Of a DNA stretch of 64,000 nt, positions 1 through 64,000 are shown piece after piece. Below the pieces are notes generated by a model. It saw only the letters and a list, made by a program, of their open reading frames with translations, searched no databases and was not told the origin of the DNA. Origin of the DNA: Eledone cirrhosa (lineage: Eukaryota). The stretch is taken from the NCBI GenBank assembly GCA_964016885.1, contig OZ024744.1:129704001-129768000 (forward strand), in the 5' to 3' direction. A program made the translations under genes and the position numbers. The stretch's first letter is position 1. The number at the start of each line of letters is the position of its first letter.

Positions 1-2990
1 GGGGTTAAGTTAATTTGTGGTTAAGTTAAGTTGGGGTTAAGTTAAGTTGGGGTTAAATTCAGTCGGGGTTAAGTTAAGTCGGGGTTAAGTTACGTTGGGG
101 TTAAGTTAAGTTGGGGTTAAGTTAAGTTGGGGTTGAGTTAAGTTGGGGTTAAGTTAAGTTGGGGTTAAAATAAGTTGGGGTTAAGTTAAGTTGGGGTTGA
201 GTTAAGTTGGGGTTGAGTGAAGTTGGGGTTAAGTTACGTTGGGGTTAAATTAAGTTGGGGTTAAGTTAAGTTGGGGGTAAGATAAGTTGGGGTTAGTTAA
301 GTTGCGGTTAAGTTAAGTTGGGGTTAAGTTAAGTTGGGGTTAAGTTAAGTTGGGGTTAAGTTAAGTTGGGGTTAATTTAAGTTGGGGTTAAGTTAAGTTG
401 GGGTTAATTTAAGTTGGGGTTAATTTAAGTTGGGGTTAAGTTAAGTTGGGGTTAAGTTAAGTTGGGGTAAAGTTAAGTTGGGGGTAAGTTAAGTTGGGGT
501 TAAGTTAAGTTGGGGTTAAGTTGGGGTTAAGTTAAGTTAGGGTTAACTTAAGTTGGGGTTGTGTTAAGTGGTGGTTATGTTAAGTGGTGGTTATGTTAAG
601 TTGGGGTTAAGTTAAATTGGGGTTAAGTTAAGTTGCGGTTAAGTTAAGTTGGGGTTAAGTTAAGTTGGGGTTAAGTTAATTAGGGTTAAGTTAAGTTGGG
701 GTTAAGTTAAGTTGGGGTTAAGTTAATTTGTTGTTAAGTTAAGTTGGGGTTAAGTTAAGTTGGGGTTAAGTTAAGTTGGGGATAAGTTAAGTTGGGGATA
801 AGTTAAGTTGGGGTTAATTAAGTTGGGTTTATTTAAGTTGGGGTTAAGTTAAGTTGGGGTTAAGTTAAGTTGGGGTTAAGTTAAGTTGGTTAGTTAAGTT
901 GAGTTTAAGTTAAGTTGGGGTTAATTTAAGTTGGGGTTAAGTTAAGTTGGGGTTAAGTTAAGTTGGGGTTAAGTTAAGTTGGGGTTAAGTTAAGTTGGGG
1001 TTCAGTTAAGTTGGGGTTAAGTTAAGTTGGGGTTAAGTTTGGGTAAAATTAAGTTGGGGTTAAGTTAAGTTGGGGTTAAGTTAAGTTGGGGTTAAGTTAA
1101 GTTGCGGTTAAGTTAAGTTGAGGTTAAGTTAAGTTGGAGTTAAGTTAAGTTGGGGTTAAGTTAAGTTGGGGCTAAGTTAAGTTGGGGCTAAGTTAAGTTG
1201 GGGCTAAGTTAAGTTGGGGTTAAGTTAACTTTGGGTTAAGTTAAGTTGGGTTTGAGTTAAGTTGGGGTTAATTAAGTTGGGGTTAAGTTAAGTTGGGGTT
1301 AAGTTAAGTTGGGGGTAAGTTAAGTTGGGGTTAAGTTAAGTTGGGGTTAAGTTAAGTTGGGGTTAAGTTAAGTTAGGCTTAACTTAAGTTGGGGTTAAGT
1401 TAAGTTGGGGGTGAGTTAAGTTGGGGGTAAGTTAAGTTGGGGTTAAGTTAAGTTGGGGGTAAGTTAATTTGGGGTTGAGTTAAGTTGGGGTTAAGTTAAG
1501 TGGTGGTTATGTTAAGTTGGGGTTAAGTTAAGTTGGGGTTAATTTAAATTGGGGTTAATTTAACTTTGTTGTTAAGTTAAGTTGGGGTTAATTTAAGTTG
1601 GGGTTAAGTTAAGTTGGGGTTGAGTTAAGTTGGGGTTGAGTGAAGTTGGGGTTAAGTTAAGTTGGGGTTAAATTAAGTTGGGGTTAAGTTAAGTTGGGGT
1701 TAATTTAAGTTGGGGTTAAGTTAAGTTGGGGTTAAGTTAATTTGTGGTTAAGTTAAGTTGGGGTTAAGTTAAGTTGGGGTTAAATTCAGTCGGGGTTAAG
1801 TTAAGTCGGGGTTAAGTTACGTTGGGGTTAAGTTAAGTTGGGGTTAAGTTAAGTTGGGGTTGAGTTAAGTTGGGGTTAAGTTAAGTTGGTGTTAAAATAA
1901 GTTGGGGTTAAGTTAAGTTGGGGTTGAGTTAAGTTGGGGTTGAGTGAAGTTGGGGTTAAGTTACGTTGGGGTTAAATTAAGTTGGGGTTAAGTTAAGTTG
2001 GGGGTAAGTTAAGTTGGGGTTAGTTAAGTTGCGGTTAAGTTAAGTTGGGGTTAAGTTAAGTTGGGGTTAAGTTAAGTTGGGGTTAAGTTAAGTTGGAGTT
2101 AATTTAAGTTGGGGTTAAGTTAAGTTGGGGTTAAGTTAAGTTGGGGTAAAGTTAAGTTGGGGGTAAGTTAAGTTGGGGTTAAGTTAAGTTGGGGTTAAGT
2201 TGGGGTTAAGTTAAGTTAGGGTTAACTTAAGTTGGGGTTGTGTTAAGTGGTGGTTATGTTAAGTGGTGGTTATGTTAAGTTGGGGTTAAGTTAAATTGGG
2301 GTTAAGTTAAGTTGCGGTTAATTTAAGTTGGGGTTAAGTTAAGTTGGGGTTAAGTTAATTAGGGTTAAGTTAAGTTGGGGTTAAGTTAAGTTGGGGTTAA
2401 GTTAATTTGTTGTTAAGTTAAGTTGGGGTTAAGTTAAGTTGGGGTTAAGTTAAGTTGGGGATAAGTTAAGTTGGGGATAAGTTAAGTTGGGGTTAATTAA
2501 GTTGGGTTTATTTAAGTTGGGGTTAAGTTAAGTTGGGGTTAAGTTAAGTTGGGGTTAAGTTAAGTTGGTTAGTTAAGTTGAGTTTAAGTTAAGTTGGGGT
2601 TAATTTAAGTTGGGGTTAAGTTAAGTTGGGGTTAAGTTAAGTTGGGGTTAAGTTAAGTTGGGGTTAAGTTAAGTTGGGGTTCAGTTAAGTTGGGGTTAAG
2701 TTAAGTTGGGGTTAAGTTGGGGTAAAATTAAGTTGGGGTTAAGTTAAGTTGGGGTTAAGTTAAGTTGGGGTTAAGTTAAGTTGCGGTTAAGTTAAGTTGA
2801 GGTTAAGTTAAGTTGGAGTTAAGTTAAGTTGGGGTTAAGTTAAGTTGGGGCTAAGTTAAGTTGGGGCTAAGTTAAGTTGGGGCTAAGTTAAGTTGGGGTT
2901 AAGTTAACTTTGGGTTAAGTTAAGTTGGGTTTGAGTTAAGTTGGGGTTAATTAAGTTGGGGTTAAGTTAAGTTGGGGTTAAGTTAAGTTG
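1..2990 (+). repeat. 1,727-bp tandem duplication (first copy cut by the window edge; second copy from ~1,311)
   Basis: AAATTCAGTC C60/C1787 (offset 1,727); GGGATAAG A782/A2461 (offset 1,679 after a 48-bp deletion near 2,100). Confidence 0.88.
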
Positions 2991-4509
2991 GGGTTAAGTT
3001 AAGTTGGGGTTAAGTTAAGTTGCGGTTAAGTTAAGTTGAGGTTAAGTTAAGTTGGGGTTAAGTTAAGTTGGGGCTAAGTTAAGTTGGAGCTAAGTTAAGT
3101 TGGGGCTAAGTTAAGTTGGGGTTAAGTTAAGTTGGGGTTAAGTTAAGGTGGGGTTAAGTTAAGTTGGGGTCAACTTAAGTTGGGGTTAAGTTAAGTTGGG
3201 GTTAACTTAAGTTGGGGTTAAATTAAGTTGGGGTTAAGTTAAGTTGGGGTTAAGTTAAGTTGGGGTTAAGTTAAGTTGGGGGTCAGTTAAGTTGGTGGTA
3301 AGTTAAGTTGGGGGTAAGTTAAGATGGGGTAAAGTTAAGTTGGGGTTAATTTAATTTGGGGTTAAGTTAAGTTAGGGTTAAGTTAAGTTGGGGTTGAGTT
3401 AAGTTGGGGTTAAGTTAAGTTGGGGTTATGTTAAGTGGGGGTTAAGTTAAGTTGGGGTTAAGTTAAGTTGGGGTTCAATTAAGTTGCGGATAATTTAAGT
3501 TGGGGTTAAGTTAAGTTGGGGTTAAGTTAAGTTGGGGTTAAGTTAAGTTGGGGTTAAATTAAGTTGGGGTTAAATTAAGTTGGGGTTAAGTTAAGTTGGG
3601 GTTATGTTAAGTTGGTGTTAAGTTAAGTTGGGGTTAAGTTAAGTTGGGGTTAAGTTAGGTTGGTGTTAATTTAAGTTGGGGGTAAGTTAAGTTGGGGGTA
3701 AGTTAAGTTGGTGTTAAGTTAAGTTGGGGTTAAGTTAAGTTGGGGTTAAGTTAAGTTGGGTTTAAGTTAAGTTGGGGCTAAGTTAAGTTGGGGTTAAGTA
3801 AAGTTAGGGCTAAGTTAAGTTGGGGTTAAGTTAAGTTGGGGTTAATTTAAGTTGGGGTTACATTAAGTTGAGGTTAAGTTAAGTTGTGGTTAAGTTAAGT
3901 TAGGGTTAATTTAAGTTAGGGTTATGTTAAGTTGGGGTTAAGTTAAGTTGGGGTTAAGTTAGGTTGGTGTTAAGTTAAGTTGGGGTTAAGTTAATTTGTG
4001 GTTAAGTTAAGTTGGGGTTAAGTTAAGTTGGGGTTAAGTTAAGTTGGGGTTAAAATAAGTTGGGGTTAAGTTAAGTTGGGGTTGAGTTAAGTTGGGGTTG
4101 AGTTAATTTGGGGTTAAGTTAAGTTGGGGTTAACTTAAGTTGGGTTTAATTTAAGTTGAGGTTAATTTAAGTTGGGGTTAAATTAAGTTGGGGTTAAGTT
4201 AAGTTGGGGGTAAGATAAGTTGCGGTTAGTTAAGTTGCGGTTAAGTTAAGTTGGGGTAAAGTTAAGTTGGGGTTAAGTTAAGTTGGGGTTAAGTTAAGTT
4301 GGGGTTAAGTTAAGTTCGGGTTAATTTAAGTTGGGGTTAAGTTAAGTTGGGGTTAATTTAAGTTGGGGTTAATTTAAGTTGGGGTCAAGTTAAGTTGGGG
4401 TTAAGTTAAGTTGGGGTAAAGTTAAGTTGGGGTTAAGTTAAGTTGGGGTTAAGTTAAGTTGGGGTTAAGTTGGGGTTAAGTTAAGTTAGGGTTAACTTAA
4501 GTTGGGGTT
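2240..4509 (+). repeat. One representative unit of the underlying ~2.3-kb (about 142-monomer) cycle of variant modules
   Basis: Distance between successive GTGTTAAGTGGTGG landmarks is 2,270 bp. An independent pair, TTCAGTCGG C23798/C26075, gives 2,277 bp. The same order of variant modules recurs across the window with deletions and partial repeats. Confidence 0.65.
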
Positions 4510-7500
4510 GTGTTAAGTGGTGGTTATGTTAAGTGGTGGTTATGTTAAGTTGGGGTTAAGTTAAGTTGTGGTTAAGTTAAATTGGGGTTAAGTTAAGTTG
4601 CGGTTAATTTAAGTTGGGGTTAAGTTAAGTTGGGGTTAAGTTAATTAGGGTTAAGTTAAGTTGGGGTTAAGTTAAGTTGGGGTTAAGTTAAGTTGGGGTT
4701 AAGTTAAGTCGGGGTTAAGTTGGGGTTAAGTTAAGTTAGGGTTAACTTAAGTTGGGGTTGTGTTAAGTGGTGGTTATGTTAAGTGGTGGTTATGTTAAGT
4801 TGGGGTTAAGTTAAGTTGTGGTTAAGTTAAATTGGGGTTAAGTTAAGTTGCGGTTAATTTAAGTTGGGGTTAAGTTAAGTTGGGGTTAAGTTAATTAGGC
4901 TTAAGTTAAGTTGGGGTTAAGTTAAGTTGGGGTTAAGTTAAGTTGGGGTTAAGTTAAGTCGGGGTTAATTTAAGTTGGGGTTAAGTTAAGTTGAGGTTAA
5001 AGTTAAGTAGGGGTTAAATTATGTTGGGGTTAAGTTAAGTTGGGGATAAGTTAAGTTGGGGATAAGTTAAGTTGGGGTTAATTAAGTTGGGTTTAAGTTA
5101 ACTTGGGGTTAAGTTAAGTTGGGGTTAAGTTAAGTTGGGGTTAAGTTAAGTTGGTTAGTTAAGTTGAGTTTAAGTTAAGTTGGGCTTAATTTAAGTTGGG
5201 GTTAAGTTAAGTTGGGGTTAAGTTAAGTTGGGGTTAAGTTAAGTTGGGGTTAAGTTAAGATGGGGTTCAGTTAAGTTGGGGTTAATTTAAGTTGGGGTTA
5301 AGTTGGGGTAAAGTTAAGTTGGGGTTAAGTTAAGTTGGGGTTAAGTTAAGTTGGGGTTAAGTTAAGTTGGGGTTAAGTTAAGTTGCGGTTAAGTTAAGTT
5401 GAGGTTAAGTTAAGTTGGGGTTAAGTTAAGTTGGGGTTAAGTTAAGTTGGGGCTAAGTTAAGTTGGGGCTAAGTTAAGTTGGGGCTAAGTTAAGTTGGGG
5501 TTAAGTTAACTTTGGGTTAAGTTAAGTTGGGTTTGAGTTAAGTTGGGGTTAATTAAGTTGGGGTTAAGTTAAGTTGGGGTTAAGTTAAGTTGGGGTTAAG
5601 TTAAGTTGGGGTTAAGTTAAGTTGCGGTTAAGTTAAGTTGATGTTAAGTTAAGTTGGGGTTAAGTTAAGTTGGGGTTAAGTTAAGTTGGGGCTAAGTTAA
5701 GTTGGGGCTAAGTTAAGTTGGGGCTAAGTTAAGTTGGGGTTAAGTTAAGGTGGGGTTCAGTTAAGTTGGGGTCAACTTAAGTTGGGGTTAAGTTAAGTTG
5801 GGGTTAAGTTAAGTTGGAGTTAAGTTTAGTTGGGGTTAAGTTAAGTTGGGGTTACGTTAAGTTGGGGGTAAGTTAAGTTGGTGGTAAGTTAAGTTGGGGG
5901 TAAGTTAAGATGGGGTTAAGTTAAGTTGGGGTTAATTTAAGTTGGGGTTAAGTTAAGTTGGGGTTAAGTTAAGTTGGGGTTAAGTTAAGTTGGGGTTAAG
6001 TTAAGTTGGGGTTAAATTAACTTGGGGTTAAATTAAGTTGGGGTTCAGTTAAGTTGGGGTTATGTTAAGTTGGTGTTAAGTTAAGTTGGGGTTAAGTTAA
6101 GTTGGGGTTAAGTTAAGTTGGGGTTAAGTTAAGTTGGGGTTAATTTAAGTTGGGGTTACATTAAGTTGATGTTAAGTTAAGTTGGGGTTAAGTTAAGTTG
6201 GGGTTAAGTTAAGTTGGGGTTAAATTAAGTTGGGGTTAAATTAAGTTGGGGTTAAGTTAAGTTGGGGTTAAGTTAGGTTGGTGTTAAGTTAAGTTGGGGT
6301 TAAGTTAATTTGTGGTTAAGTTAAGTTGGGGTTAAGTTAAGTTGGGGTTAAGTTCAGTCGGGGTTAAGTTAAGTCGGGGTTAAGTTAAGTTGGGGTTAAA
6401 TTAAGTTGCGGTTAAGTTAAGTTGGGGTTACGTTAAGTTGGGGTTAAGTTAATTAGGGTTAAGTTAAGTTGGGGTTAAGTTAAGTTGGGGTTAAGTTAAG
6501 TTGGGGTTAAGTTAAGTTGGGTTTAAGTTAAGTTGGGGCTAAGTTAAGTTAGGGCTAAGTTAAGTTGGGGTTAAGTTAAGTTGGGGTTAATTTAAGTTGG
6601 GGTTACATTAAGTTGAGGTTAAGTTAAGTTGTGGTTAAGTTAAGTTAGGGTTAATTTAAGTTAGGGTTATGTTAAGTTGGAGTTAAGTTAAGTTGGGGTT
6701 AAGTTAGGTTGGTGTTAAGTTAAGTTGGGGTTAAGTTAATTTGTGGTTAAGTTAAGTTGGGGTTAAGTTAAGTTGGGGTTAAGTTCAGTCGGGGTTAATT
6801 TAAGTCGGGGTTAAGTTAAGTTGGGGTTAAGTTAAGTTGGGGTTAAGTTAAGTTGGGGTTGAGTTAAGTTGGGGTTAAGTTAAGGTGGGGTTAAAATAAG
6901 TTGGGGTTAAGTTAAGTTGGGGTTGAGTTAAGTTGGGGTTGAGTTAATTTGGGGTTAAGTTAAGTTGGGGTTAACTTAAGTTGGGTTTAATTTAAGTTGG
7001 GGTTAATTTAAGTTGGGGTTAAATTAAGTTGGGGTTAAATTAAGTTGGGGTTAAGTTAAGTTGGGGGTAAGATAAGTTGGGGTTAGTTAAGTTGCGGTTA
7101 AGTTAAGTTGGGGTTAAGTTAAGTTGGGGTTAATTTAAGTTGGGGTTAATTTAAGTTGGGGTTAAGTTAAGTTGGGGTTAATTTAAGTTGGGGTTAATTT
7201 AAGTTGGGGTTAAGTTAAGTTGGGGTTAAGTTAAGTTGGGGTAAAGTTAAGTTGGGGTTAAGTTAAGTTGGGGTTAAGTTAAGTTGGGGTTAAGTTGGGG
7301 TTAAGTTAAGTTAGGGTTAACTTAAGTTGGGGTTGTGTTAAGTGGTGGTTATGTTAAGTGGTGGTTATGTTAAGTTGGGGTTAAGTTAAGTTGGGGTTAA
7401 GTTAAATTGGGGTTAAGTTAAGTCGCGGTTAAGTTAAGTTGGGGTTAAGTTAAGTTGGGGTTAAGTTAATTAGGGTTAAGTTAAGTTGGGGTTAAGTTAA

Positions 7501-10500
7501 GTTGGGGTTAAGTTAAGTTGGGGTTAAGTTAAGTTGAGGTTAAAGTTAAGTAGGGGTTAAATTATGTTGGGGTTAAGTTAAGTTGGGGTTAAGTTAAGTT
7601 GGGGTTAAGTTAAGTTGGGGATAAGTTAAGTTGGGGATAAGTTAAGTTGGGGTTAATTAAGTTGGGTTTAAGTTAAGTTGGGGTTAAGTTAAGTTGGGGT
7701 TAAGTTAAGTTGGGGTTAAGTTAAGTCGGTTAGTTAAGTTGAGTTTAAGTTAAGTTGGGCTTAATTTAAGTTGGGGTTAAGTTAAGTTGGGGTTAAGTTA
7801 AGTTGGGGTTAAGTTAAGTTGGGGTTAAGTTAAGTTGGGGTTCAGTCAAGTTGGGGTTAAGTTAAGTTGGGGTTAAGTTGGGGTAAAATTAAGTTGGGGT
7901 TAAGTTAAGTTGGGGTTAAGTTAAGTTGCGGTTAAGTTAAGTTGAGGTTAAATTAAGTTGGGGTTAAGTTAAGTTGGGGTTAATTTAAGTTGGGGCTAAG
8001 TTAAGTTGGGGCTAAGTTAAGTTGGGGCTAAGTTAAGTTGGGGTTAAGTTAACTTTGGGTTAAGTTAAGTTGGGTTTGAGTTAAGTTGGGGTTAATTAAG
8101 TTGGGGTTAAGTTAAGTTGGGGTTAAGTTAAGTTGGGGTTAAGTTAAGTTGGTGTTAAGTTAAGTTGCGGTTAAGTTAAGTTGATGTTAAGTTAAGTTGG
8201 GGTTAAGTTAAGTTGGGGTTAAGTTAAGTTGGGGCTAAGTTAAGTTGGGGCTAAGTTAAGTTGGGGCTAAGTTAAGTTGGGGTTAAGTTAAGGTGGGGTT
8301 AAGTTAAGTTGGGGTTAATTTAATTTGGGGTTAAGTTAAGTTAGGGTTAAGTTAAGTTGGGGTTATGTTAAGTTGGGGTTAAGTTAAGTTGGGGTTAAGT
8401 TAAGTTGGGGTTCAATTAAGTTGCGGTTAATTTAAGTTGGGTTTAAGTTAAGTTGGGGTTCAGTTAAGTTGGGGTTATGTTAAGTTGGTGTTAAGTTAAG
8501 TTGGGGTTAAGTTAAGTTGGGGTTAAGTTAAGTTGGGGTTAAGTTAGGTTGGTGTTAAGTTAAGTTGGCGGTAAGTTAAGTTGGGGGTAAGTTAAGTTGG
8601 TGTTAAGTTATGTTGGGGTTAAGTTAAGTTGGGGTTAAGTTAAGTTGGGTTTAAGTTAAGTTGGGGCTAAGTTAAGTTAGGGCTAAGTTAAGTTGGGGTT
8701 AAGTAAAGTTAGGGCTAAGTTAAGTTGGGGTTAAGTTAAGTTGGGGTTAATTTAAGTTGGGGTTACATTAAGTTGAGGTTAAGTTAAGTTGGGGTTAAGT
8801 TAAGTTGGGTTTAAGTTAAGTTGGGGCTAAGTTAAGTTAGGGCTAAGTTAAGTTGGGGCTGAGTTAAGTTGGGGTTAAGTTAAGTTGGGGTTGAGTTAAG
8901 TTGGGGTTAAGTTAAGTTGGGGTTAAGTTAAGTTGGGGTTAAGTTAAGTTGGGGCTGAGTTAAGTTGGGGTTACGTTAAGTTGGGGTTAAGGTAAGTTGG
9001 GGTTAAGTTAAGTTCGGGTTAAGTTAAGTTGGTGTTAAGTTAAGTTGGGGCTGAGTTAAGTTGGGGCTAAGTTAAGTTGGGTCTAAGTTAAGTTGGGGTT
9101 AAGTTAAGTTGGGGTTAAGTTAAGTTGGTGTTAAATTAAGTTGGGGTTAAGTTAAGTTGGTGTTAAGTTAAGTTGGGGTTAAGTTAAGTTGGGGTTAATT
9201 AAGTTGGGGTTAAGTTAAGTTGGGGTTAAGTTAATTGGGGTTAAATTAGGTTAGGGTTGAGTTAAGTTGGGGTTAAGTTAAGTTGGGGTTATATTAAGTT
9301 GGGGTTAAGTTAAGTTGGGGTTAAGTAAAGTTGGGGTACAGTTAAGTTGCGGTTAAGTTAAGTTGGGGTTAAGTTAAGTTAGGCTTAACTTAAGTTGGGG
9401 TTAAGTTAAGTTGGGGTGAGTTAAGTTGGGGGTAAGTTAAGTTGGGGTTAAGTTAAGTTGGGGTTAAGTTGGGGTTAAGTTAATTTAGGGTTAAGTTAAG
9501 TTGGGGTTGAGTTAAGTTGGGGTTAAGTTAAGTGGTGGTTATGTTAAGTTGGGGTTAAATTAAGTTGGGGTTAATTTAAATTGGGGTTAATTTAACTTTG
9601 TGGTTAAGTTAAGTTGGGGTTAATTTAAGTTGGGGTTAAGTTAAGTTGGGGTTAATTTAATTTGTGGTTAAGTTAAGTTGGGGTTAAGTTAAGTTGGGCT
9701 TGAGTTAAGCTGGGGTTAAGTTAAGTTGGGGTTAAAATAAGTTGGGGTTAAGTTAAGTTGGGGTTGAGTTAAGTTGGGGTTGAGTTAATTCGGGGTTAAG
9801 TTAAGTTGGGGTTAACTTAAGTTGGGTTTAATTTAAGTTGGGGTTAAGTTAAGTTGGGGTTATAATTAAGTTGGGGTTAAGTTAAGTTGGGGGTAAGATA
9901 AGTTGGGGTTAGTTAAGTTGCGGTTAAGTTAAGTTGGGGTTAAGTTAAGTTGGGGTTAAGTTAAGTTGGGGTTAAGTTAAGTTGGGGTTAAATTAAGTTG
10001 GGGTTAATTTAAGTTGGGGTAAAGTTAAGTTGGGGGTAAGTTAAGTTGGGGTTAAGTTAAGTTGGGGTTAAGTTGGGGTTAAGTTAAGTTAGGGTTAACT
10101 TAAGTTGGGGTTGTGTTAAGTGGTGGTTATGTTAAGTGGTGGTTATGTTAAGTTGGGGTTAAGTTAAGTTGGGGTTAAGTTAAATTGGGGTTAAGTTAAG
10201 TTGCGGTTAAGTTAAGTTGGGGTTAAGTTAAGTTGGGGTTAAGTTAATTAGGGTTAAGTTAAGTTGGGGTTAAGTTAAGTTGGGGTTAAGTTAAGTTGGG
10301 GTTAAGTTAATTTGTGGTTAAGTTAAGTTGGGGTTAAGTTAAGTTGGGGTTAAGTTAAGTTGGGGATAAGTTAAGTTGAGGATAAGTTAAGTTGGGGTTA
10401 ATTAAGTTGGCTTTAAGTTAAGTTGGGGTTAAGTTAAGTTGGGGTTAAGTTAAGTTGGGGTTAAGTTAAGTTGGTTAGTTAAGTTGAGTTTAAGTTAAGT

Positions 10501-29400: not shown

Positions 29401-29464
29401 GTAAGTTAAGTTGGTGTTAAGTTAAGTTGGGGTTAAGTTAAGTTGGGGTTAAGTTAAGTTGGGG

Positions 29465-30110: not shown

Positions 30111-30155
30111 GTTAAGTTAAGTTAGGGTTAAGTTAAGTTGGGGTTGAGTTAAGTT

Positions 30156-52300: not shown

Positions 52301-55300
52301 AAGTTGGGGTTAAGTTAAGTTGGGGTTAATTTAAGTTGGGGTTAATTTAAGTTGGGGTTAAGTTAAGTTGGGGTTAAGTTAAGTTGGGGTAAAGTTAAGT
52401 TGGGGTTAAGTTAAGTTGGGGTTAAGTTAAGTTGGGGTTAAGTTGGGGTTAAGTTAAGTTAGGGTTAACTTAAGTTGGGGTTGTGTTAAGTGGTGGTTAT
52501 GTTAAGTGGTGGTTATGTTAAGTTGGGGTTAAGTTAAGTTGGGGTTAAGTTAAATTGGGGTTAAGTTAAGTCGCGGTTAAGTTAAGTTGGGGTTAAGTTA
52601 AGTTGGGGTTAAGTTAATTAGGGTTAAGTTAAGTTGGGGTTAAGTTAAGTTGGGGTTAAGTTAAGTTGGGGTTAAGTTAAGTTGGGGTTAAGTTAAGTTG
52701 GGGTTAAGATAAGTTGGGGTTAAGTTAAGTCGGGGTTAAGTTAAGTTAGGGTTAAGTTAAGTTGGGGTTAATTTAAGTTGGGGTTAAGTTAAGTTGGGGT
52801 TAAGTTAAGTTGGGGTTAAGTTAAGTTGAGGTTAAAGTTAAGTAGGGGTTAAATTATGTTGGGGTTAAGTTAAGTTGGGGTTAAGTTAAGTTGGGGTTAA
52901 GTTAAGTTGGGGATAAGTTAAGTTGGGGATAAGTTAAGTTGGGGTTAATTAAGTTGGGTTTAAGTTAAGTTGGGGTTAAGTTAAGTTGGGGTTAAGTTAA
53001 GTTGGGGTTAAGTTAAGTCGGTTAGTTAAGTTGAGTTTAAGTTAAGTTGGGCTTAATTTAAGTTGGGGTTAAGTTAAGTTGGGGTTAAGTTAAGTTGGGG
53101 TTAAGTTAAGTTGGGGTTAAGTTAAGTTGGGGTTCAGTCAAGTTGGGGTTAAGTTAAGTTGGGGTTAAGTTGGGGTAAAATTAAGTTGGGGTTAAGTTAA
53201 GTTGGGGTTAAGTTAAGTTGCGGTTAAGTTAAGTTGAGGTTAAATTAAGTTGGGGTTAAGTTAAGTTGGGGTTAATTTAAGTTGGGGCTAAGTTAAGTTG
53301 GGGCTAAGTTAAGTTGGGGCTAAGTTAAGTTGGGGTTAAGTTAACTTTGGGTTAAGTTAAGTTGGGTTTGAGTTAAGTTGGGGTTAATTAAGTTGGGGTT
53401 AAGTTAAGTTGGGGTTAAGTTAAGTTGGGGTTAAGTTAAGTTGGTGTTAAGTTAAGTTGCGGTTAAGTTAAGTTGATGTTAAGTTAAGTTGGGGTTAAGT
53501 TAAGTTGGGGTTAAGTTAAGTTGGGGCTAAGTTAAGTTGGGGCTAAGTTAAGTTGGGGCTAAGTTAAGTTGGGGTTAAGTTAAGGTGGGGTTAAGTTAAG
53601 TTGGGGTTAATTTAATTTGGGGTTAAGTTAAGTTAGGGTTAAGTTAAGTTGGGGTTATGTTAAGTTGGGGTTAAGTTAAGTTGGGGTTAAGTTAAGTTGG
53701 GGTTCAATTAAGTTGCGGTTAATTTAAGTTGGGTTTAAGTTAAGTTGGGGTTCAGTTAAGTTGGGGTTATGTTAAGTTGGTGTTAAGTTAAGTTGGGGTT
53801 AAGTTAAGTTGGGGTTAAGTTAAGTTGGGGTTAAGTTAGGTTGGTGTTAAGTTAAGTTGGCGGTAAGTTAAGTTGGGGGTAAGTTAAGTTGGTGTTAAGT
53901 TATGTTGGGGTTAAGTTAAGTTGGGGTTAAGTTAAGTTGGGTTTAAGTTAAGTTGGGGCTAAGTTAAGTTAGGGCTAAGTTAAGTTGGGGTTAAGTAAAG
54001 TTAGGGCTAAGTTAAGTTGGGGTTAAGTTAAGTTGGGGTTAATTTAAGTTGGGGTTACATTAAGTTGAGGTTAAGTTAAGTTGGGGTTAAGTTAAGTTGG
54101 GTTTAAGTTAAGTTGGGGCTAAGTTAAGTTAGGGCTAAGTTAAGTTGGGGCTGAGTTAAGTTGGGGTTAAGTTAAGTTGGGGTTGAGTTAAGTTGGGGTT
54201 AAGTTAAGTTGGGGTTAAGTTAAGTTGGGGTTAAGTTAAGTTGGGGCTGAGTTAAGTTGGGGTTACGTTAAGTTGGGGTTAAGGTAAGTTGGGGTTAAGT
54301 TAAGTTCGGGTTAAGTTAAGTTGGTGTTAAGTTAAGTTGGGGCTGAGTTAAGTTGGGGCTAAGTTAAGTTGGGTCTAAGTTAAGTTGGGGTTAAGTTAAG
54401 TTGGGGTTAAGTTAAGTTGGTGTTAAATTAAGTTGGGGTTAAGTTAAGTTGGTGTTAAGTTAAGTTGGGGTTAAGTTAAGTTGGGGTTAATTAAGTTGGG
54501 GTTAAGTTAAGTTGGGGTTAAGTTAATTGGGGTTAAATTAGGTTAGGGTTGAGTTAAGTTGGGGTTAAGTTAAGTTGGGGTTATATTAAGTTGGGGTTAA
54601 GTTAAGTTGGGGTTAAGTAAAGTTGGGGTACAGTTAAGTTGCGGTTAAGTTAAGTTGGGGTTAAGTTAAGTTAGGCTTAACTTAAGTTGGGGTTAAGTTA
54701 AGTTGGGGTGAGTTAAGTTGGGGGTAAGTTAAGTTGGGGTTAAGTTAAGTTGGGGTTAAGTTGGGGTTAAGTTAATTTAGGGTTAAGTTAAGTTGGGGTT
54801 GAGTTAAGTTGGGGTTAAGTTAAGTGGTGGTTATGTTAAGTTGGGGTTAAATTAAGTTGGGGTTAATTTAAATTGGGGTTAATTTAACTTTGTGGTTAAG
54901 TTAAGTTGGGGTTAATTTAAGTTGGGGTTAAGTTAAGTTGGGGTTAATTTAATTTGTGGTTAAGTTAAGTTGGGGTTAAGTTAAGTTGGGCTTGAGTTAA
55001 GCTGGGGTTAAGTTAAGTTGGGGTTAAAATAAGTTGGGGTTAAGTTAAGTTGGGGTTGAGTTAAGTTGGGGTTGAGTTAATTCGGGGTTAAGTTAAGTTG
55101 GGGTTAACTTAAGTTGGGTTTAATTTAAGTTGGGGTTAAGTTAAGTTGGGGTTATAATTAAGTTGGGGTTAAGTTAAGTTGGGGGTAAGATAAGTTGGGG
55201 TTAGTTAAGTTGCGGTTAAGTTAAGTTGGGGTTAAGTTAAGTTGGGGTTAAGTTAAGTTGGGGTTAAGTTAAGTTGGGGTTAAATTAAGTTGGGGTTAAT

Positions 55301-58300
55301 TTAAGTTGGGGTAAAGTTAAGTTGGGGGTAAGTTAAGTTGGGGTTAAGTTAAGTTGGGGTTAAGTTGGGGTTAAGTTAAGTTAGGGTTAACTTAAGTTGG
55401 GGTTGTGTTAAGTGGTGGTTATGTTAAGTGGTGGTTATGTTAAGTTGGGGTTAAGTTAAGTTGGGGTTAAGTTAAATTGGGGTTAAGTTAAGTTGCGGTT
55501 AAGTTAAGTTGGGGTTAAGTTAAGTTGGGGTTAAGTTAATTAGGGTTAAGTTAAGTTGGGGTTAAGTTAAGTTGGGGTTAAGTTAAGTTGGGGTTAAGTT
55601 AATTTGTGGTTAAGTTAAGTTGGGGTTAAGTTAAGTTGGGGTTAAGTTAAGTTGGGGATAAGTTAAGTTGAGGATAAGTTAAGTTGGGGTTAATTAAGTT
55701 GGCTTTAAGTTAAGTTGGGGTTAAGTTAAGTTGGGGTTAAGTTAAGTTGGGGTTAAGTTAAGTTGGTTAGTTAAGTTGAGTTTAAGTTAAGTTGGGGTTA
55801 ATTTAAGTTGGGGTTAAGTTAAGTTGGGGTTAAGTTAAGTTTGGGTTGAGTTAAGTTGGGGTTCAGTTAAGTTGGGGTTAAGTTAAGTTGGGGTTAAGTT
55901 GGGGTAAAATTAAGTTGGGGTTAAGTTAAGTTGCGGTTAAGTTAAGTTGAGGTTAAGTTAAGTTGGGGTTAAGTTAAGTTGGGGTTAAGTTAAGTTGGGG
56001 CTAAGTTAAGTTGGAGCTAAGTTAAGTTGGGGCTAAGTTAAGTTGGGGTTAAGTTAAGTTGGGGTTAAGTTAAGGTGGGGTTAAGTTAAATTGGGGTCAA
56101 CTTAAGTTGGGGTTAATTTAAGTTGGGGTTAACTTAAGTTGGGGTTAAGTTAAGTTGGGGTTAAGTTAAGTTGGGGTTAAGTTAAGTTGGGGTTACGTTA
56201 AGTTGGGGGTAAGTTAAGTTGGTGGTAAGTTAAGTTGGGGGTAAGTTAAGATGGGGTTAAGTTAAGTTGGGGTTAATTTAATTTGGGTTTAAGTTAAGTT
56301 AGGGTTAAGTTAAGTTGGGGTTGAGTTAAGTTGGGGTTAAGTTAAGTTGGGGTTATGTTAAGTTGGGGTTAAGTTAAGTTGGGGTTAAGTTAAGTTGGGG
56401 CTCAATTAAGTTGCGGTTAATTTAAGTTGGGGTTAAGTTAAGTTGGGGTTAAGTTAAGTTGGGGTTAAGTTAAGTTGGGGTTAAATTAAGTTGGGGTTAA
56501 ATTAAGTTGGGGTTAAGTTAAGTTGGGGTTATGTTAAGTTGGTGTTAAGTTAAGTTGGGGTTAAGTTAAGTTGGGGTTAAGTTAGGTTGGTGTTAATTTA
56601 AGTTGGGGTTAAGTTAAGTTGGGGTTAAGTTAAGTTGGTTAGTTAAGTTGAGTTTAAGTTAAGTTGGGGTTAATTTAAGTTGGGGTTAAGTTAAGTTGGG
56701 GTTAAGTTAAGTTGGGGTTAAGTTAAGTTGGGGTTCAGTTAAGTTGGGGTTAAGTTAAGTTGGGGTTAAGTTAAGTTGCGGTTAAGTTAAGTTGCCGTTA
56801 AGTTAAGTTGAGGTTAAGTTAAGTTGGGGTTAAGTTAAGTTGGGGTTAAGTTAAGTTGGGGCTAAGTTAAGTTGGGGCTAAGTTAAGTTGGGGCTAAGTT
56901 AAGTTGGGGTTAAGTTAACTTTGGGTTAAGTTAAGTTGGGTTTGAGTTAAGTTGGGGTTAATTAAGTTGGGGTTAAGTTAAGTTGGGGTTAAGTTAAGTT
57001 GGGGTTAAGTTGGGGTTAAGTTAAGTTGCGGTTAAGTTAAGTTGATGTTAAGTTAAGTTGGGGTTAAGTTAAGTTGGGGTTAAGTTAAGTTGGGGCTAGG
57101 TTAAGTTGGGGTTAATTTAAGTTGGGGTTAAGTTAAGGTGGGGTTAAGTTAAGTTGGGGTCAACTTAAGTTGGGGTTAAGTTAAGTTGGGGTTAACTTAA
57201 GTTGGGGTTAAGTTAAGTTGGGGTTAAGTTAAGTTGGGGTTACGTTAAGTTGGGGGTAAGTCAAGTTGGTGGTAAGTTAAGTTGGGGGTAAGTTAAGATG
57301 GGGTTAAGTTAAGTTGGGGTTAATTTAATTTGGGGTTAAGTTAAGTTAGGGTTAAGTTAAGTTGGGGTTGAGTTAAGTTGGGGTTAAGTTAAGTTGGGGT
57401 TATGTTAAGTTGGGGTTAAGTTAAGTTGGGGTTAAGTTAAGTTGGGGTTCAATTAAGTTGCGGATAATTTAAGTTGGGGTTAAGTTAAGTTGGGGTTAAG
57501 TTAAGTTGGGGTTAAGTTAAGTTGGGGTTAAATTAAGTTGGGGTTAAATTGAGTTGGGGTTAAGTTAATTTGGGGTTATGTTAAGTTGGTGTTAAGTTAA
57601 GTTGGGGTTAAGTTAAGTTGGGGTTAAGTTAGGTTGGTGTTAATTTAAGTTGGGGGTAAGTTAAGTTGGGGGTAAGTTAAGTTGGTGTTAAGTTAAGTTG
57701 GGGTTAAGTTAAGTTGGGGTTAAGTTAAGTTGGGTTTAAGTTAAGTTGGGGCTAAGTTAAGTTAGGGCTAAGTTAAGTTGGGGTTAAGTAAAGTTAGGGC
57801 TAAGTTAAGTTGGGGTTAAGTTAAGTTGGGGTTAATTTAAGTTGGGGTTACATTAAGTTGATGTTAAGTTAAGTTGGGGTTAAGTTAAGTTGGGGTTAAG
57901 TTAAGTTGGGGTTAAATTAAGTTGGGGTTAAATTAAGTTGGGGTTAAGTTAAGTTGGGGTTAAGTTAGGTTGGTGTTAAGTTAAGTTGGGGTTAAGTTAA
58001 TTTGTGGTTAAGTTAAGTTGGGGTTAAGTTAAGTTGGGGTTAAGTTCAGTCGGGGTTAAGTTAAGTCGGGGTTAAGTTAAGTTGGGGTTAAGTTAAGTTG
58101 CGGTTAAGTTAAGTTGGGGTTAAGTTAAGTTGGGGTTAAGTTAATTAGGGTTAAGTTCAGTTGGGGTTAAGTTAAGTTGGGGTTAAGTTAAGTTAAGTTA
58201 AGTTGGGTTTAAGTTAAGTTGGGGCTAAGTTAAGTTAGGGCTAAGTTAAGTTGGGGTTAAGTTAAGTTGGGGTTAAGTTAAGTTGGGGTTAAGTTAATTT

Positions 58301-61300
58301 GTGGTTAAGTTAAGTTGGGGTTAAGTTAAGTTGGGGTTAAGTTAAGTTGGGGATAAGTTAAGTTGAGGATAAGTTAAGTTGGGGTTAATTAAGTTGGCTT
58401 TAAGTTAAGTTGGGGTTAAGTTAAGTTGGGGTTAAGTTAAGTTGGGGTTAAGTTAAGTTGGTTAGTTAAGTTGAGTTTAAGTTAAGTTGGGGTTAATTTA
58501 AGTTGGGGTTAAGTTAAGTTGGGGTTAAGTTAAGTTTGGGTTAAGTTAAGTTGGGGTTCAGTTAAGTTGGGGTTAAGTTAAGTTGGGGTTAAGTTGGGGT
58601 AAAATTAAGTTGGGGTTAAGTTAAGTTGCGGTTAAGTTAAGTTGAGGTTAAGTTAAGTTGGGGTTAAGTTAAGTTGGGGTTAAGTTAAGTTGGGGCTAAG
58701 TTAAGTTGGAGCTAAGTTAAGTTGGGGCTAAGTTAAGTTGGGGTTAAGTTAAGTTGGGGTTAAGTTAAGGTGGGGTTAAGTTAAATTGGGGTCAACTTAA
58801 GTTGGGGTTAATTTAAGTTGGGGTTAACTTAAGTTGGGGTTAAGTTAAGTTGGGGTTAAGTTAAGTTGGGGTTAAGTTAAGTTGGGGTTACGTTAAGTTG
58901 GGGGTAAGTTAAGTTGGTGGTAAGTTAAGTTGGGGGTAAGTTAAGATGGGGTTAAGTTAAGTTGGGGTTAATTTAATTTGGGTTTAAGTTAAGTTAGGGT
59001 TAAGTTAAGTTGGGGTTGAGTTAAGTTGGGGTTAAGTTAAGTTGGGGTTATGTTAAGTTGGGGTTAAGTTAAGTTGGGGTTAAGTTAAGTTGGGGCTCAA
59101 TTAAGTTGCGGTTAATTTAAGTTGGGGTTAAGTTAAGTTGGGGTTAAGTTAAGTTGGGGTTAAGTTAAGTTGGGGTTAAATTAAGTTGGGGTTAAATTAA
59201 GTTGGGGTTAAGTTAAGTTGGGGTTATGTTAAGTTGGTGTTAAGTTAAGTTGGGGTTAAGTTAAGTTGGGGTTAAGTTAGGTTGGTGTTAATTTAAGTTG
59301 GGGTTAAGTTAAGTTGGGGTTAAGTTAAGTTGGTTAGTTAAGTTGAGTTTAAGTTAAGTTGGGGTTAATTTAAGTTGGGGTTAAGTTAAGTTGGGGTTAA
59401 GTTAAGTTGGGGTTAAGTTAAGTTGGGGTTCAGTTAAGTTGGGGTTAAGTTAAGTTGGGGTTAAGTTAAGTTGCGGTTAAGTTAAGTTGCCGTTAAGTTA
59501 AGTTGAGGTTAAGTTAAGTTGGGGTTAAGTTAAGTTGGGGTTAAGTTAAGTTGGGGCTAAGTTAAGTTGGGGCTAAGTTAAGTTGGGGCTAAATTAAGTT
59601 GGGGTTAAGTTAACTTTGGGTTAAGTTAAGTTGGGTTTGAGTTAAGTTGGGGTTAATTAAGTTGGGGTTAAGTTAAGTTGGGGTTAAGTTAAGTTGGGGT
59701 TAAGTTGGGGTTAAGTTAAGTTGCGGTTAAGTTAAGTTGATGTTAAGTTAAGTTGGGGTTAAGTTAAGTTGGGGTTAAGTTAAGTTGGGGCTAGGTTAAG
59801 TTGGGGTTAATTTAAGTTGGGGTTAAGTTAAGGTGGGGTTAAGTTAAGTTGGGGTCAACTTAAGTTGGGGTTAAGTTAAGTTGGGGTTAACTTAAGTTGG
59901 GGTTAAGTTAAGTTGGGGTTAAGTTAAGTTGGGGTTAAGTTAAGTTGGGGTTACGTTAAGTTGGGGGTAAGTCAAGTTGGTGGTAAGTTAAGTTGGGGGT
60001 AAGTTAAGATGGGGTTAAGTTAAGTTGGGGTTAATTTAATTTGGGGTTAAGTTAAGTTAGGGTTAAGTTAAGTTGGGGTTGAGTTAAGTTGGGGTTAAGT
60101 TAAGTTGGGGTTATGTTAAGTTGGGGTTAAGTTAAGTTGGGGTTAAGTTAAGTTGGGGTTCAATTAAGTTGCGGATAATTTAAGTTGGGGTTAAGTTAAG
60201 TTGGGGTTAAGTTAAGTTGGGGTTAAGTTAAGTTGGGGTTAAATTAAGTTGGGGTTAAATTGAGTTGGGGTTAAGTTAAGTTGGGGTTATGTTAAGTTGG
60301 TGTTAAGTTAAGTTGGGGTTAAGTTAAGTTGGGGTTAAGTTAGGTTGGTGTTAATTTAAGTTGGGGGTAAGTTAAGTTGGGGGTAAGTTAAGTTGGTGTT
60401 AAGTTAAGTTGGGGTTAAGTTAAGTTGGGGTTAAGTTAAGTTGGGTTTAAGTTAAGTTGGGGCTAAGTTAAGTTAGGGCTAAGTTAAGTTGGGGTTAAGT
60501 AAAGTTAGGGCTAAGTTAAGTTGGGGTTAAGTTAAGTTGGGGTTAATTTAAGTTGGGGTTACATTAAGTTGATGTTAAGTTAAGTTGGGGTTAAGTTAAG
60601 TTGGGGTTAAGTTAAGTTGGGGTTAAATTAAGTTGGGGTTAAATTAAGTTGGGGTTAAGTTAAGTTGGGGTTAAGTTAGGTTGGTGTTAAGTTAAGTTGG
60701 GGTTAAGTTAATTTGTGGTTAAGTTAAGTTGGGGTTAAGTTAAGTTGGGGTTAAGTTCAGTCGGGGTTAAGTTAAGTCGGGGTTAAGTTAAGTTGGGGTT
60801 AAGTTAAGTTGCGGTTAAGTTAAGTTGGGGTTAAGTTAAGTTGGGGTTAAGTTAATTAGGGTTAAGTTCAGTTGGGGTTAAGTTAAGTTGGGGTTAAGTT
60901 AAGTTAAGTTAAGTTGGGGCTAAGTTAAGTTAGGGCTAAGTTAAGTTGGGGTTAAGTTAAGTTGGGGTTAATTTAAGTTGGGGTTACATTAAGTTGAGGT
61001 TAAGTTAAGTTGTGGTTAAGTTAAGTTAGGGTTAATTTAAGTTAGGGTTATGTTAAGTTGGGGTTAAGTTAAGTTGGGGTTAAGTTAGGTTGGTGTTAAG
61101 TTAAGTTGGGGTTAAGTTAATTTGTGGTTAAGTTAAGTTGGGGTTAAGTTAAGTTGGGGTTAAGTTCAGTCGGGGTTAAGTTAAGTCGGGGTTAAGTTAA
61201 GTTGGGGTTAAGTTAAGTTGGGGTTAAGTTAAGTTGGGGTTGAGTTAAGTTGGGGTTAAGTTAAGGTGGGGTTAAAATAAGTTGGGGTTAAGTTAAGTTG

Positions 61301-64000
61301 GGGTTGAGTTAAGTTGGGGTTGAGTTAATTTGGGGTTAAGTTAAGTTGGGGTTAACTTAAGTTGGGTTTAATTTAAGTTGGGGTTAATTTAAGTTGGGGT
61401 TAAATTAAGTTGGGGTTAAGTTAAGTTGGGGGTAAGATAAGTTGGGGTTAGTTAAGTTGCGGTTAAGTTAAGTTGGGGTTAAGTTAAGTTGGGGTTAATT
61501 TAAGTTGGGGTTAATTTAAGTTGGGGTTAAGTTAAGTTGGGGTTAATTTAAGTTGGGGTTAATTTAAGTTGGGGTTAAGTTAAGTTGGGGTTAAGTTAAG
61601 TTGGGGTAAAGTTAAGTTGGGGTTAAGTTAAGTTGGGGTTAAGTTAAGTTGGGGTTAAGTTGGGGTTAAGTTAAGTTAGGGTTAACTTAAGTTGGGGTTG
61701 TGTTAAGTGGTGGTTATGTTAAGTGGTGGTTATGTTAAGTTGGGGTTAAGTTAAGTTGGGGTTAAGTTAAATTGGGGTTAAGTTAAGTTGCGGTTAAGTT
61801 AAGTTGGGGTTAAGTTAAGTTGGGGTTAAGTTAATTAGGGTTAAGTTAAGTTGGGGTTAAGTTAAGTTGGGGTTAAGTTAAGTTGGGGTTAAGTTAAGTT
61901 GGGGTTAAGTTAAGTCGGGGTTAAGTTAAGTTATGGTTAAGTTAAGTTGGGGTTAATTTCAGTTGGGGTTAAGTTAAGTTGGGGTTAAGTTAAGTTGGGG
62001 TTAAGTTAAGTTGAGGTTAAAGTTAAGTAGGGGTTAAATTATGTTGGGGTTAAGTTAAGTTGGGGTTAAGTTGAGTTGGGGTTAAGTTAAGTTGGGGATA
62101 AGTTAAGTTGGGGATAAGTTAAGTTGGGGTTAATTAAGTTGGGTTTAAGTTAAGTTGGGGTTAAGTTAAGTTGGGGTTAAGTTAAGTTGGGGTTAAGTTA
62201 AGTTGGTTAGTTAAGTTGAGTTTAAGTTAAGTTGGGCTTAATTTAAGTTGGGGTTAAGTTAAGTTGGGGTTAAGTTAAGTTGGGGTTAAGTTAAGTTGGG
62301 GTTCAGTCAAGTTAAGTTGGGGTTAAGTTGGGGTAAAATTAAGTTAGGGTTAAGTTAAGTTGGGGTTAAGTTAAGTTGGGGTTAAGTTAAGTTGGGGTTA
62401 AGTTAAGTTGCGGTTAAGTTAAGTTGAGGTTAAATTAAGTTGGGGTTAAGTTAAGTTGGGGTTAATTTAAGTTGGGGCTAAGTTAAGTTGGGGCTAAGTT
62501 AAGTTGGGGCTAAGTTAAGTAGGGGTTAAGTTAACTTTGGGTTAAGTTATGTTGGGTTTGAGTTAAGTTGGGGTTAATTAAGTTGGGGTTAAGTTAAGTT
62601 GGGGTTAAGTTAAGTTGGGGTTAAGTTAAGTTGGTGTTAAGTTAAGTTGCGGTTAAGTTAAGTTGATGTTAAGTTAAGTTGGGGTTAAGTTAAGTTGGGG
62701 TTAAGTTAAGTTGGGGCTAAGTTAAGTTGGGGCTAAGTTAAGTTGGGGCTAAGTTAAGTTGGGGTTAAGTTAAGGTGGGGTTAAGTTAAGTTGGGGTCAA
62801 CTTAAGTTGGGGTTAAGTTAAGTTGGGGTTAAGTTAAGTTGGGGTTAAGTTAAGTTGGGGTTACGTTAAGTTGGGGGTAAGTTAAGTTGGTGGTAAGTTA
62901 AGTTGGGGGTAAGTTAAGATGGGGTTAAGTTAAGTTGGGGTTAATTTAATTCGGGGTTAAGTTAAGTTAGGGTTAAGTTAAGTTGGGGTTATGTTAAGTT
63001 GGGGTTAAGTTAAGTTGGGGTTAAGTTAAGTTGGGGTTCAATTAAGTTGCGGTTAATTTAAGTTGGGTTTAAGTTAAGTTGGGGTTAAGTTAAGTTGGGG
63101 TTATGTTAAGTTGGTGTTAAGTTAAGTTGGGGTTAAGTTAAGTTGGGGTTAAGTTAAGTTGGGTTTAAGTTAAGTTGGGTTTAAGTTAAGTTGGGGCTAA
63201 GTTAAGTTAGGGCTAAGTTAAGTTGGGGTTAAGTTAAGTTGGGGTTAATTTAAGTTGGGGTTACATTAAGTTGAGGTTAAGTTAAGTTGTGGTTAAGTTA
63301 AGTTAGGGTTAATTTAAGTTAGGGTTATGTTAAGTTGGGGTTAAGTTAAGTTGGGGTTAAGTTAGGTTGGTGTTAAGTTAAGTTGGGGTTAAGTTAATTT
63401 GTGGTTAAGTTAAGTTGGGGTTAAGTTAAGTTGGGGTTAAGTTCAGTCGGGGTTAAGTTAAGTCGGGGTTAAGTTAAGTTGGGGTTAAGTTAAGTTGGGG
63501 TTAAGTTAAGTTGGGGTTGAGTTAAGTTGGGGTTAAGTTAAGGTGGGGTTAAAATAAGTTGGGGTTAAGTTAAGTTGGGGTTGAGTTAAGTTGGGGTTGA
63601 GTTAATTTGGGGTTAAGTTAAGTTGGGGTTAACTTAAGTTGGGTTTAATTTAAGTTGGGGTTAATTTAAGTTGGGGTTAAATTAAGTTGGGGTTAAGTTA
63701 AGTTGGGGGTAAGATAAGTTGGGGTTAGTTAAGTTGCGGTTAAGTTAAGTTGGGGTTAAGTTAAGTTGGGGTTAATTTAAGTTGGGGTTAATTTAAGTTG
63801 GGGTTAAGTTAAGTTGGGGTTAATTTAAGTTGGGGTTAATTTAAGTTGGGGTTAAGTTAAGTTGGGGTTAAGTTAAGTTGGGGTAAAGTTAAGTTGGGGT
63901 TAAGTTAAGTTAGGGTTAAGTTAAGTTGGGGTTATGTTAAGTTGGGGTTAAGTTAAGTTGGGGTTAAGTTAAGTTGGGGTTCAATTAAGTTGCGGTTAAT
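37338..64000 (+). repeat. 37-kb super-repeat, copy 2 (partial; equals 1-26,631)
   Basis: Same marker order as copy 1. The offset is 37,337 up to ~22,040 and 37,369 afterwards (TGCCG C22121/C59490; AACTT C24317/C61686). The window end TCAATTAAGTTGCGGTTAAT matches sequence ending at 26,631. Confidence 0.95.

What the first reader, a model, noticed from the sequence alone, without database searches (positions are those of the whole stretch)
1..64000. Near-perfect 37,337-bp super-repeat hidden inside a 16-bp satellite
Seen: ten marker pairs across 1-21,800 recur at exactly +37,337, and later ones at +37,369. Over about 26.6 kb of overlap I noticed only one 32-bp indel and one substitution, though the comparison was by eye and not exhaustive. 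The unit holds about 2,330 monomers, a very large higher-order period for so short a monomer. Inference: a very recent large copying event such as unequal exchange, break-induced replication or rolling-circle copying of a 37-kb circle. An assembly artefact (two haplotypes or overlapping reads laid in tandem) is a real alternative.
Basis: partly seen in the sequence, partly recalled or inferred. Interest (0 to 1): 0.75.

Follow-up and report, generated by a model that had tools for sequence, protein, structure and literature searches.

The report
One young 37-kb satellite duplication
A 37,000-base stretch of a 16-base satellite is present twice in a row with only four differences, and it is the longest of 81 young duplications found in a fifth of an 8-million-base array, so it is likely one ordinary recent copying slip rather than a giant repeating unit, though an assembly error is not excluded.

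Summary
Window 1-22,061 equals 37,338-59,398 with no mismatch; then come one 32-bp indel and one substitution. But this is not a higher-order period. There are only two copies, also genome-wide, differing by three substitutions and one indel over 37.3 kb. The array spans about 8.3 Mb of contig C28. In 1.664 Mb of it, with no gaps, I found 81 distinct young tandem duplications of 1.5-37 kb. This is the longest (next 19.2, 17.3, 16.6 kb) but only the 15th youngest. Its seam lies in a 2,191-bp tract identical in three places, inside 12.8 kb of older homology. It most likely arose by out-of-register homologous repair between older paralogous blocks, about 17,000 generations ago on a borrowed mutation rate. 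Known parallels: Arabidopsis centromere duplications and human DXZ1 macro-repeats. The scan has noted similar one-off duplications in other satellites of this genome (e1-9909488, e1-10309920). Ordinary satellite turnover; low interest.

The parts
1..64000 (+). 16-bp satellite (GGGGTTAAGTTAAGTT)n, part of an array of about 8.3 Mb on G000:C28 (starts between 126.90 and 127.00 Mb, ends between 135.20 and 135.50 Mb of 136.5 Mb)
1..35908 (+). Copy 1 of the 37,337-bp duplication (begins 1,429 bp before the window, at -1,428)
35909..64000 (+). Copy 2 (37,369 bp; ends beyond the window at 73,277)
1..22061 (+). Tract identical letter for letter to 37,338-59,398 (23,490 bp with its upstream part)
22033..22061 (+). 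Site of the 32-bp (two-monomer) indel; the shorter form in copy 1 is the private one (1 occurrence against 12 with 40-bp flanks)
24321..24321 (+). Substitution private to copy 1 (C; copy 2 has A at 61,690); single occurrence in the whole assembly
33472..33472 (+). Substitution private to copy 1 (A; T at 70,841)
34794..34794 (+). Substitution private to copy 1 (T; C at 72,163)
35909..38376 (+). Seam between the copies. 35,909-38,099 (2,191 bp) is identical at -1,428, 35,909 and 73,278; the switch from downstream-type to upstream-type letters lies before 38,377
1040..1890 (+). Two marker letters (T at 1,040 and 1,890) shared only with 38,377 and 39,227; they predate the duplication and fix the side of the seam
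3254..19047 (+). Older inner tandem duplication, period 7,811/7,955 bp (one 144-bp indel); source of the 7,955-bp GTAC spacing; copied to 40,591-56,384
18210..23549 (+). Older inner tandem duplication, period about 2,695 bp; copied to 55,547-60,918
28852..35649 (+). First half of an older 6,776-bp tandem duplication whose second half supplied the downstream homology tract for the 37-kb event

Best explanation
The 37.3-kb repeat is a two-copy tandem duplication inside an 8-Mb 16-bp satellite, likely made once and recently by out-of-register homologous DNA repair between two older, nearly identical blocks that lay 37.3 kb apart. Shown: two copies, four differences, a seam inside a 2,191-bp three-way identical tract, and nested older duplications of 7.8, 6.8 and 2.7 kb. 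Inferred: earlier duplications of about 20 kb and 6.8 kb created the paired tracts. A broken or stalled strand from the downstream tract then paired with the upstream tract and the interval was copied again. I lean 55:45 to a replication restart of the break-induced type over unequal crossing-over; the sequence cannot separate the two. The four differences are inferred to be mutations that came at or after copying. The block has no sign of a function of its own; it is one step in the array's constant turnover.
For: Two copies only. 85 tandem chains, 81 distinct, of 1.5-37 kb in 1.664 Mb without any N. A power-law fit to the 47 periods of 4 kb or more expects 0.84 events of this size. 62 of 81 have blunt seams (overlap within 300 bp); such joins are new sequence that an overlap-based assembler is unlikely to invent (inference), so the process is real in this array. 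The chance that an in-register pair 20-60 kb apart shares 2 kb exactly is 4.3e-6, so this seam was guided by homology. Differences between copies look biological: 62 of 90 pure indels are multiples of 16 bp, private substitutions split 44:39 between left and right copies, and their spectrum matches that of variants shared by two copies (chi-square p = 0.89). Letters that diagnose the seam (34,794 and 38,377) are only 3,584 bp apart, well within one long read (inference on the assembly method). Precedent: 10.1101/2025.06.02.657473, 10.1101/2021.07.12.452052, PMC8997354.
Against: No read support could be obtained. It is twice the next-largest event, and a log-normal fit expects only 0.04 events of this size. 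Unlike most others, its seam has the long exact overlap that also permits an assembler misjoin. All four private differences lie in copy 1 and in its last 37%, after 23.5 kb of perfect identity; each pattern alone is not significant (two-sided 0.125 for 4:0, by arithmetic; P = 0.095 for the largest gap, 0.019 if the first gap is singled out). Two random haplotypes could differ by three or fewer substitutions with probability 0.04-0.30 at diversities reported for two other octopus species. False duplications inside satellite arrays are documented (PMC12991106).
Confidence: 0.73

Rival explanations
1. Assembly artefact: two slightly different haplotypes were joined head to tail through the 2.2-2.5-kb exact overlap, so one real copy is written twice.
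For: The seam sits in exactly such an overlap. A 23.5-kb perfectly identical tract may exceed read length. Low diversity on octopus Z chromosomes (2.9e-4 to 1.3e-3, PMC13669787) would allow haplotypes this alike with probability 0.08-0.30. False duplications of about 500 kb inside HOR arrays are reported (PMC12991106).
Against: No N gap in 1.064 Mb around it, so it is not a scaffolding join of two contigs. No extra copy on another contig. A misjoin would need the assembler to prefer a 2.5-kb overlap to much longer ones and to pass twice through a shared tract (inference). Equally perfect blunt duplications of 16.6, 17.3 and 14.1 kb lie in the same array. If C28 is the Z, as earlier notes say, and the animal had one Z, no second haplotype exists; neither point was tested here.
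Confidence: 0.15
2. A true, still-amplifying 37-kb higher-order repeat with three or more copies, collapsed to two in the assembly.
For: Identical copies longer than the reads can be collapsed (established assembly behaviour, recalled). The 23.5-kb identical tract would hide extra turns of the loop.
Against: Only two copies are assembled. Every other large offset in the sampled array is a one-off or has at most a few copies, the most being about 4.4 copies of 6.1 kb. No stable period runs along the array.
Confidence: 0.06
3. A 37-kb circle was excised and copied by rolling-circle replication or reinserted.
For: Excision between the two homologous tracts and reinsertion into the sister chromatid would give the same product (inference).
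Against: Rolling-circle copying predicts three or more copies or an insertion elsewhere. There are two copies, in place, with collinear flanks.
Confidence: 0.06

Closest known systems
Repeat-preserving tandem duplications in Arabidopsis CEN178 centromeres (10.1101/2025.06.02.657473; passages and section 5 read)
   Same: Adjacent head-to-tail copies that keep the monomer register; attributed to homology-directed repair, with features of break-induced replication; enough to build homogeneous blocks in simulation.
   Different: There the 35 wild-type insertions add 1-31 units (mean 1,870 bp) of a 178-bp monomer and were seen as new mutations. Here the monomer is 16 bp, the event is 37 kb, it uses 2.2 kb of perfect homology, and it is read from one assembly.
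Large recent tandem duplications ('macro-repeats') in human alpha-satellite, e.g. DXZ1 (10.1101/2021.07.12.452052; passages read)
   Same: One-off, recent, nested duplications inside a megabase satellite array.
   Different: Those span hundreds of kilobases of a fixed higher-order unit and are known to be polymorphic among people. This array has no fixed higher-order unit, and polymorphism is untested.
Nested tandem repeats of human HSat2/HSat3 (same paper, passages)
   Same: Kilobase-scale structure laid over a very short, diverged monomer.
   Different: Nested tandem repeats are described as longer repeat units with a detectable periodicity. The 37-kb offset occurs once, and offsets change every few tens of kb here.
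False duplications in assembled satellite arrays (HMM-Flagger, PMC12991106; passages read)
   Same: Near-identical adjacent copies inside a satellite, recognisable only from read depth.
   Different: No gap or second contig here; private differences have the array's natural mutation spectrum.

Membership tests
Higher-order repeat (alpha-satellite type) | Multi-monomer unit much more alike between copies than monomers are to each other | tested here: met
   4 differences in 37.3 kb against 88.5% identity at offset 16
Higher-order repeat (alpha-satellite type) | Unit repeated many times in tandem | tested here: not met
   Private marker found twice in the whole assembly; the diagonal ends on both sides. 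Collapse in assembly is not excluded.
Nested tandem repeat (HSat2/3 type) | Kilobase-scale repetition over a short diverged monomer | tested here: met
   Offsets of 1.5-37 kb over a 16-bp monomer
Nested tandem repeat (HSat2/3 type) | A period that persists along the array | tested here: not met
   81 distinct duplications with changing periods in 1.664 Mb; only about a fifth of the array examined
Repeat-preserving tandem duplication in a satellite array | Copy adjacent to its source, same orientation, monomer register kept at the seam | tested here: met
   no break in the 16-bp repeat across the window
Repeat-preserving tandem duplication in a satellite array | Seam at homologous sequence | tested here: met
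   2,191-bp three-way identical tract; chance level 4.3e-6
Repeat-preserving tandem duplication in a satellite array | Present on real molecules and absent from an ancestral or other haplotype | not testable with these tools
Repeat-preserving tandem duplication in a satellite array | Dependence on homology-directed repair | not testable with these tools
   Shown in Arabidopsis with rtel1 lines; needs genetics
Assembly false duplication | Half read depth over both copies | not testable with these tools
Assembly false duplication | Gap or contig join at the seam | tested here: not met
   No N in 1.064 Mb around the window
Assembly false duplication | Exact overlap at the seam long enough to allow a misjoin | tested here: met
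   2,191-2,468 bp
Rolling-circle amplification | Three or more head-to-tail copies or insertion at a distant site | tested here: not met

The most novel reading that the evidence does not exclude
The new copy was born mutated: one error-prone, break-induced replication event wrote all four changes into the 14 kb next to the seam, and the array's young duplications together keep a fossil record of mutagenic repair in an animal satellite. All four private changes are in copy 1 near the seam. Across the array private substitutions tend to sit on one copy of a pair (p = 0.011 over all 19 pairs with two or more). The signal weakens to p = 0.03-0.25 once nested events are counted once, and there is no pile-up at seams.
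Probability: 0.1. Interest if true: 0.55.

Novelty: new member of a known kind. Interest (0 to 1): 0.17.

Why it matters
As a single object it matters little: large one-off duplications in satellites are known from plants and humans. Its value is as a clean example. A 16-bp satellite with no fixed higher-order unit turns over by kilobase duplications so fast that copies with at most 0.5 differences per kb account for 14.9% of the sampled array (37 events, 248 kb of 1.664 Mb). The array also gives a ready test set for two open points: whether long jumps need long perfect homology while short ones need only the monomer, and whether the newly made copy carries more mutations. I found no paper with this monomer.

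Tried and rejected
Fixed 37-kb period: rejected, two copies only. Third copy on an unplaced contig: none for two private markers. Flank diversity as a yardstick for haplotype divergence: two flanking 3-kb samples proved to be dispersed repeats and were not used. Left or right bias of mutations over all duplications: none (44:39). One-sided mutation load within pairs: seven subsets gave p = 0.0007-0.20; after counting nested events once, 14 tests gave p = 0.03-0.25, and mean distance from the seam was 0.46 of the unit for 104 events; suggestive only, with post hoc thresholds. Long homology as a rule for large events: medians are alike (4,854 bp for 19 long-overlap, 4,281 bp for 62 blunt), and blunt events reach 19.2 kb. 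G-quadruplex stalling as a cause: mean G4Hunter score 0.98, 30% of 25-nt windows at 1.2 or more; possible, not shown. Telomere origin of the monomer: it contains one GGGTTA and abuts a (CCCTAA)n block on C3, but in opposite strand sense; unresolved. Earlier-findings searches near the window, by words and by sequence gave nothing relevant.

Full report
Observation. The window is one unbroken array of GGGGTTAAGTTAAGTT, 4,030.5 copies. A scan of all offsets up to 50,000 puts 37,337 first. Positions 1-22,061 equal 37,338-59,398 exactly; after a 32-bp indel the offset is 37,369, with one mismatch at 24,321/61,690. The four GTAC sites are as stated. Neighbouring monomers are 88.5% alike, so this is not chance.

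Setting. The window is G000:C28:129,704,001-129,768,000 in a 3.0-Gb assembly. Sparse 3-kb samples put the array between 126.9-127.0 Mb and 135.2-135.5 Mb of the 136.5-Mb contig, about 8.3 Mb. A perfect four-monomer word occurs 8,413 times in the assembly. At 815-1,635 per Mb in my samples, this array would hold most of them. A second array starts on C3 at 184.77 Mb, directly after a (CCCTAA)n block. Earlier AI notes call the genome an octopus and C28 the likely Z chromosome. I did not test either label.

Anatomy. With 100 kb on each side, the exact match runs from -1,428 to 22,061 (23,490 bp), and the near-exact diagonal ends at 41,126/78,495. Copy 1 is -1,428 to 35,908; copy 2 is 35,909 to 73,277. 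They differ by one indel and three substitutions (24,321, 33,472, 34,794), and in all four the private form is in copy 1. A marker private to the unit occurs twice in the whole assembly, and the 24,321 allele once. So there are two copies and no period. The match is longer than the period because the start of the unit has an older paralogue at 73,278. The first 2,191 bp are identical in all three places, and homology continues for 12.8 kb with 17 listed differences. The middle tract carries upstream-type letters from 38,377 on and a downstream-type flank before 35,909, so the seam lies in 35,909-38,376. A fifth difference (38,100/75,469, private to the downstream tract) may predate or follow the event. 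Inside the unit are older duplications of 7,811/7,955 bp and 2,695 bp, and half of a 6,776-bp one. Offsets of 64-75 kb and 20.8 kb point to a still older duplication of about 20 kb (inference).

Is it exceptional? I catalogued tandem duplications in three gap-free stretches: 1.064 Mb around the window, 0.4 Mb at 128.0 Mb and 0.2 Mb at 134.1 Mb, together 1.664 of about 8.3 Mb. The method chains exact matches of 256 bp or more, seeded at 800 bp, with period 1,500 bp or more, so only young events are seen. It gave 85 chains, 81 after dropping 4 exact nested copies. The largest are 37.3, 19.2, 17.3, 16.6, 15.7, 14.1, 13.3 and 12.3 kb. A power law fitted to the 47 periods of 4 kb or more expects 0.84 events of 37 kb; a log-normal fit expects 0.04. 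It is therefore the far tail, unusual under one model and expected under the other. It is not the youngest: 14 of 81 have fewer differences per kb, among them a 16.6-kb pair with none. Events with at most 0.5 differences per kb number 37 and add 14.9% of the sampled sequence.

Mechanism. 62 of 81 events have blunt seams, where only monomer-level similarity was available; 19, including this one, have long overlaps. In the array with one copy removed, in-register pairs 20-60 kb apart share 2 kb exactly at a rate of 4.3e-6, so this seam was chosen by homology. Out-of-register restart of a broken fork behind the break, or unequal exchange, both give this product (PMC8997354, passages). In Arabidopsis mutation-accumulation lines all 56 large centromeric indels kept the repeat register, and homology-directed repair with features of break-induced replication was implicated (10.1101/2025.06.02.657473, passages). 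I lean slightly to the restart model because of the many blunt events and the one-sided differences; this is inference. With three substitutions and a rate of 2.4e-9 per generation borrowed from other octopuses (PMC13669787, passages) the age is about 16,700 generations (95% range 3,450-48,900). It would be ten times less if satellites mutate ten times faster, as reported in Arabidopsis.

Are the differences real mutations? Over all 81 pairs, 62 of 90 pure indels are multiples of 16 bp and 9 are single bases. Private substitutions split 44:39 between left and right copies, with 90 further substitutions not polarised. The private spectrum (G>T 19 of 83) matches that of variants shared by exactly two copies (G>T 30 of 102; chi-square p = 0.89). 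This fits mutation better than consensus error.

Artefact. The seam's 2.2-2.5-kb exact overlap is also what an assembler would need for a false join, and a join of two haplotypes would look the same as an exchange between homologues. Diversity does not rule it out: at values from two other octopus species, two haplotypes differ by three or fewer substitutions in 37 kb with probability 0.04-0.30. False duplications inside satellite arrays are documented (PMC12991106, passages). Against it: no gap in 1.064 Mb, no spare copy elsewhere, diagnostic letters only 3,584 bp apart, and blunt duplications of similar perfection nearby. Octopus females have one Z (PMC10925132, abstract and outline); if C28 is the Z of such an animal, no second haplotype exists, but this is untested.

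The boldest reading. All four differences are in copy 1, within 14 kb of the seam, as an error-prone newly made strand would give. Across pairs with two or more private substitutions the split is more one-sided than chance (p = 0.011, 19 pairs), but p = 0.12 without one 15.7-kb pair. After counting nested events once, p is 0.03-0.25 over 14 overlapping tests, and there is no pile-up near seams. I give it 10%.

Comparison with what is known. It works like the repeat-preserving duplications of Arabidopsis centromeres and the large recent duplications in human DXZ1, which reach hundreds of kilobases (10.1101/2021.07.12.452052, passages). It is not a higher-order repeat or a nested tandem repeat, since it is not repeated along the array. 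A full-text search for the monomer found 0 papers. A search for an 11-letter part and three cephalopod-satellite phrases found 9 papers, all on unrelated subjects by their listings, and none for the phrases. Searches were seen as search listings only, apart from the six papers named above. No supplements were read; the library lacks most subscription journals, so the satellite may be described elsewhere.

Verdict. Real in the assembly, most likely real in the animal, and ordinary: the longest of many young duplications in a large simple satellite. New member of a known kind; interest 0.17.

Noticed in passing
G000:C28 129,419,400-129,453,000 (window-relative -284,600 to -251,000) and 129,588,000-129,599,600; L029, L045: An AT-rich repeat of 1.4-2.8 kb interrupts the satellite; six copies recur at 6.1-6.8-kb spacing, carried along by tandem duplications that include a 12,505-bp exact match.
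   Followed up: partly
G000:C28 from about 130,247,600; L033-L036, L119-L120, L127, L132: Short (about 200-bp) inverted satellite segments begin at the quasi-palindrome GGGGTTAACCCC, which suggests fold-back template switching; they recur every 1-4 kb. A larger inverted block lies at 133.0 Mb (L128).
   Followed up: partly
L138 (G000:C3:184,760,001-184,770,000): A degenerate (CCCTAA)n block of more than 9 kb, near the middle of the 379-Mb contig C3, joins the same 16-bp satellite directly and in opposite strand sense; possible fusion scar or interstitial telomeric array.
   Followed up: no
G000:C28 129,915,681-129,948,883; 134,186,000; 130,102,223: Blunt tandem duplications of 16,610 bp (no difference), 17,314 bp (one) and 14,108 bp (one), all younger than the 37-kb event.
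   Followed up: yes
all sampled array: Substitutions are led by G>T on the G-rich strand (19 of 83 private, 30 of 102 shared), which would fit oxidative damage to guanine; not normalised for base content.
   Followed up: no
L137, L039 (last 200 kb of C28): Repeats near the contig end look noisy, with many single-base indels, and there is no TTAGGG telomere at either end of C28 in the 3-kb samples; local assembly quality may be lower there than in the window.
   Followed up: no
L123, L125 (126.65 and 126.90 Mb): Sequence left of the array is dispersed repeat; L123 has a 97% full-length paralogue on C5.
   Followed up: partly
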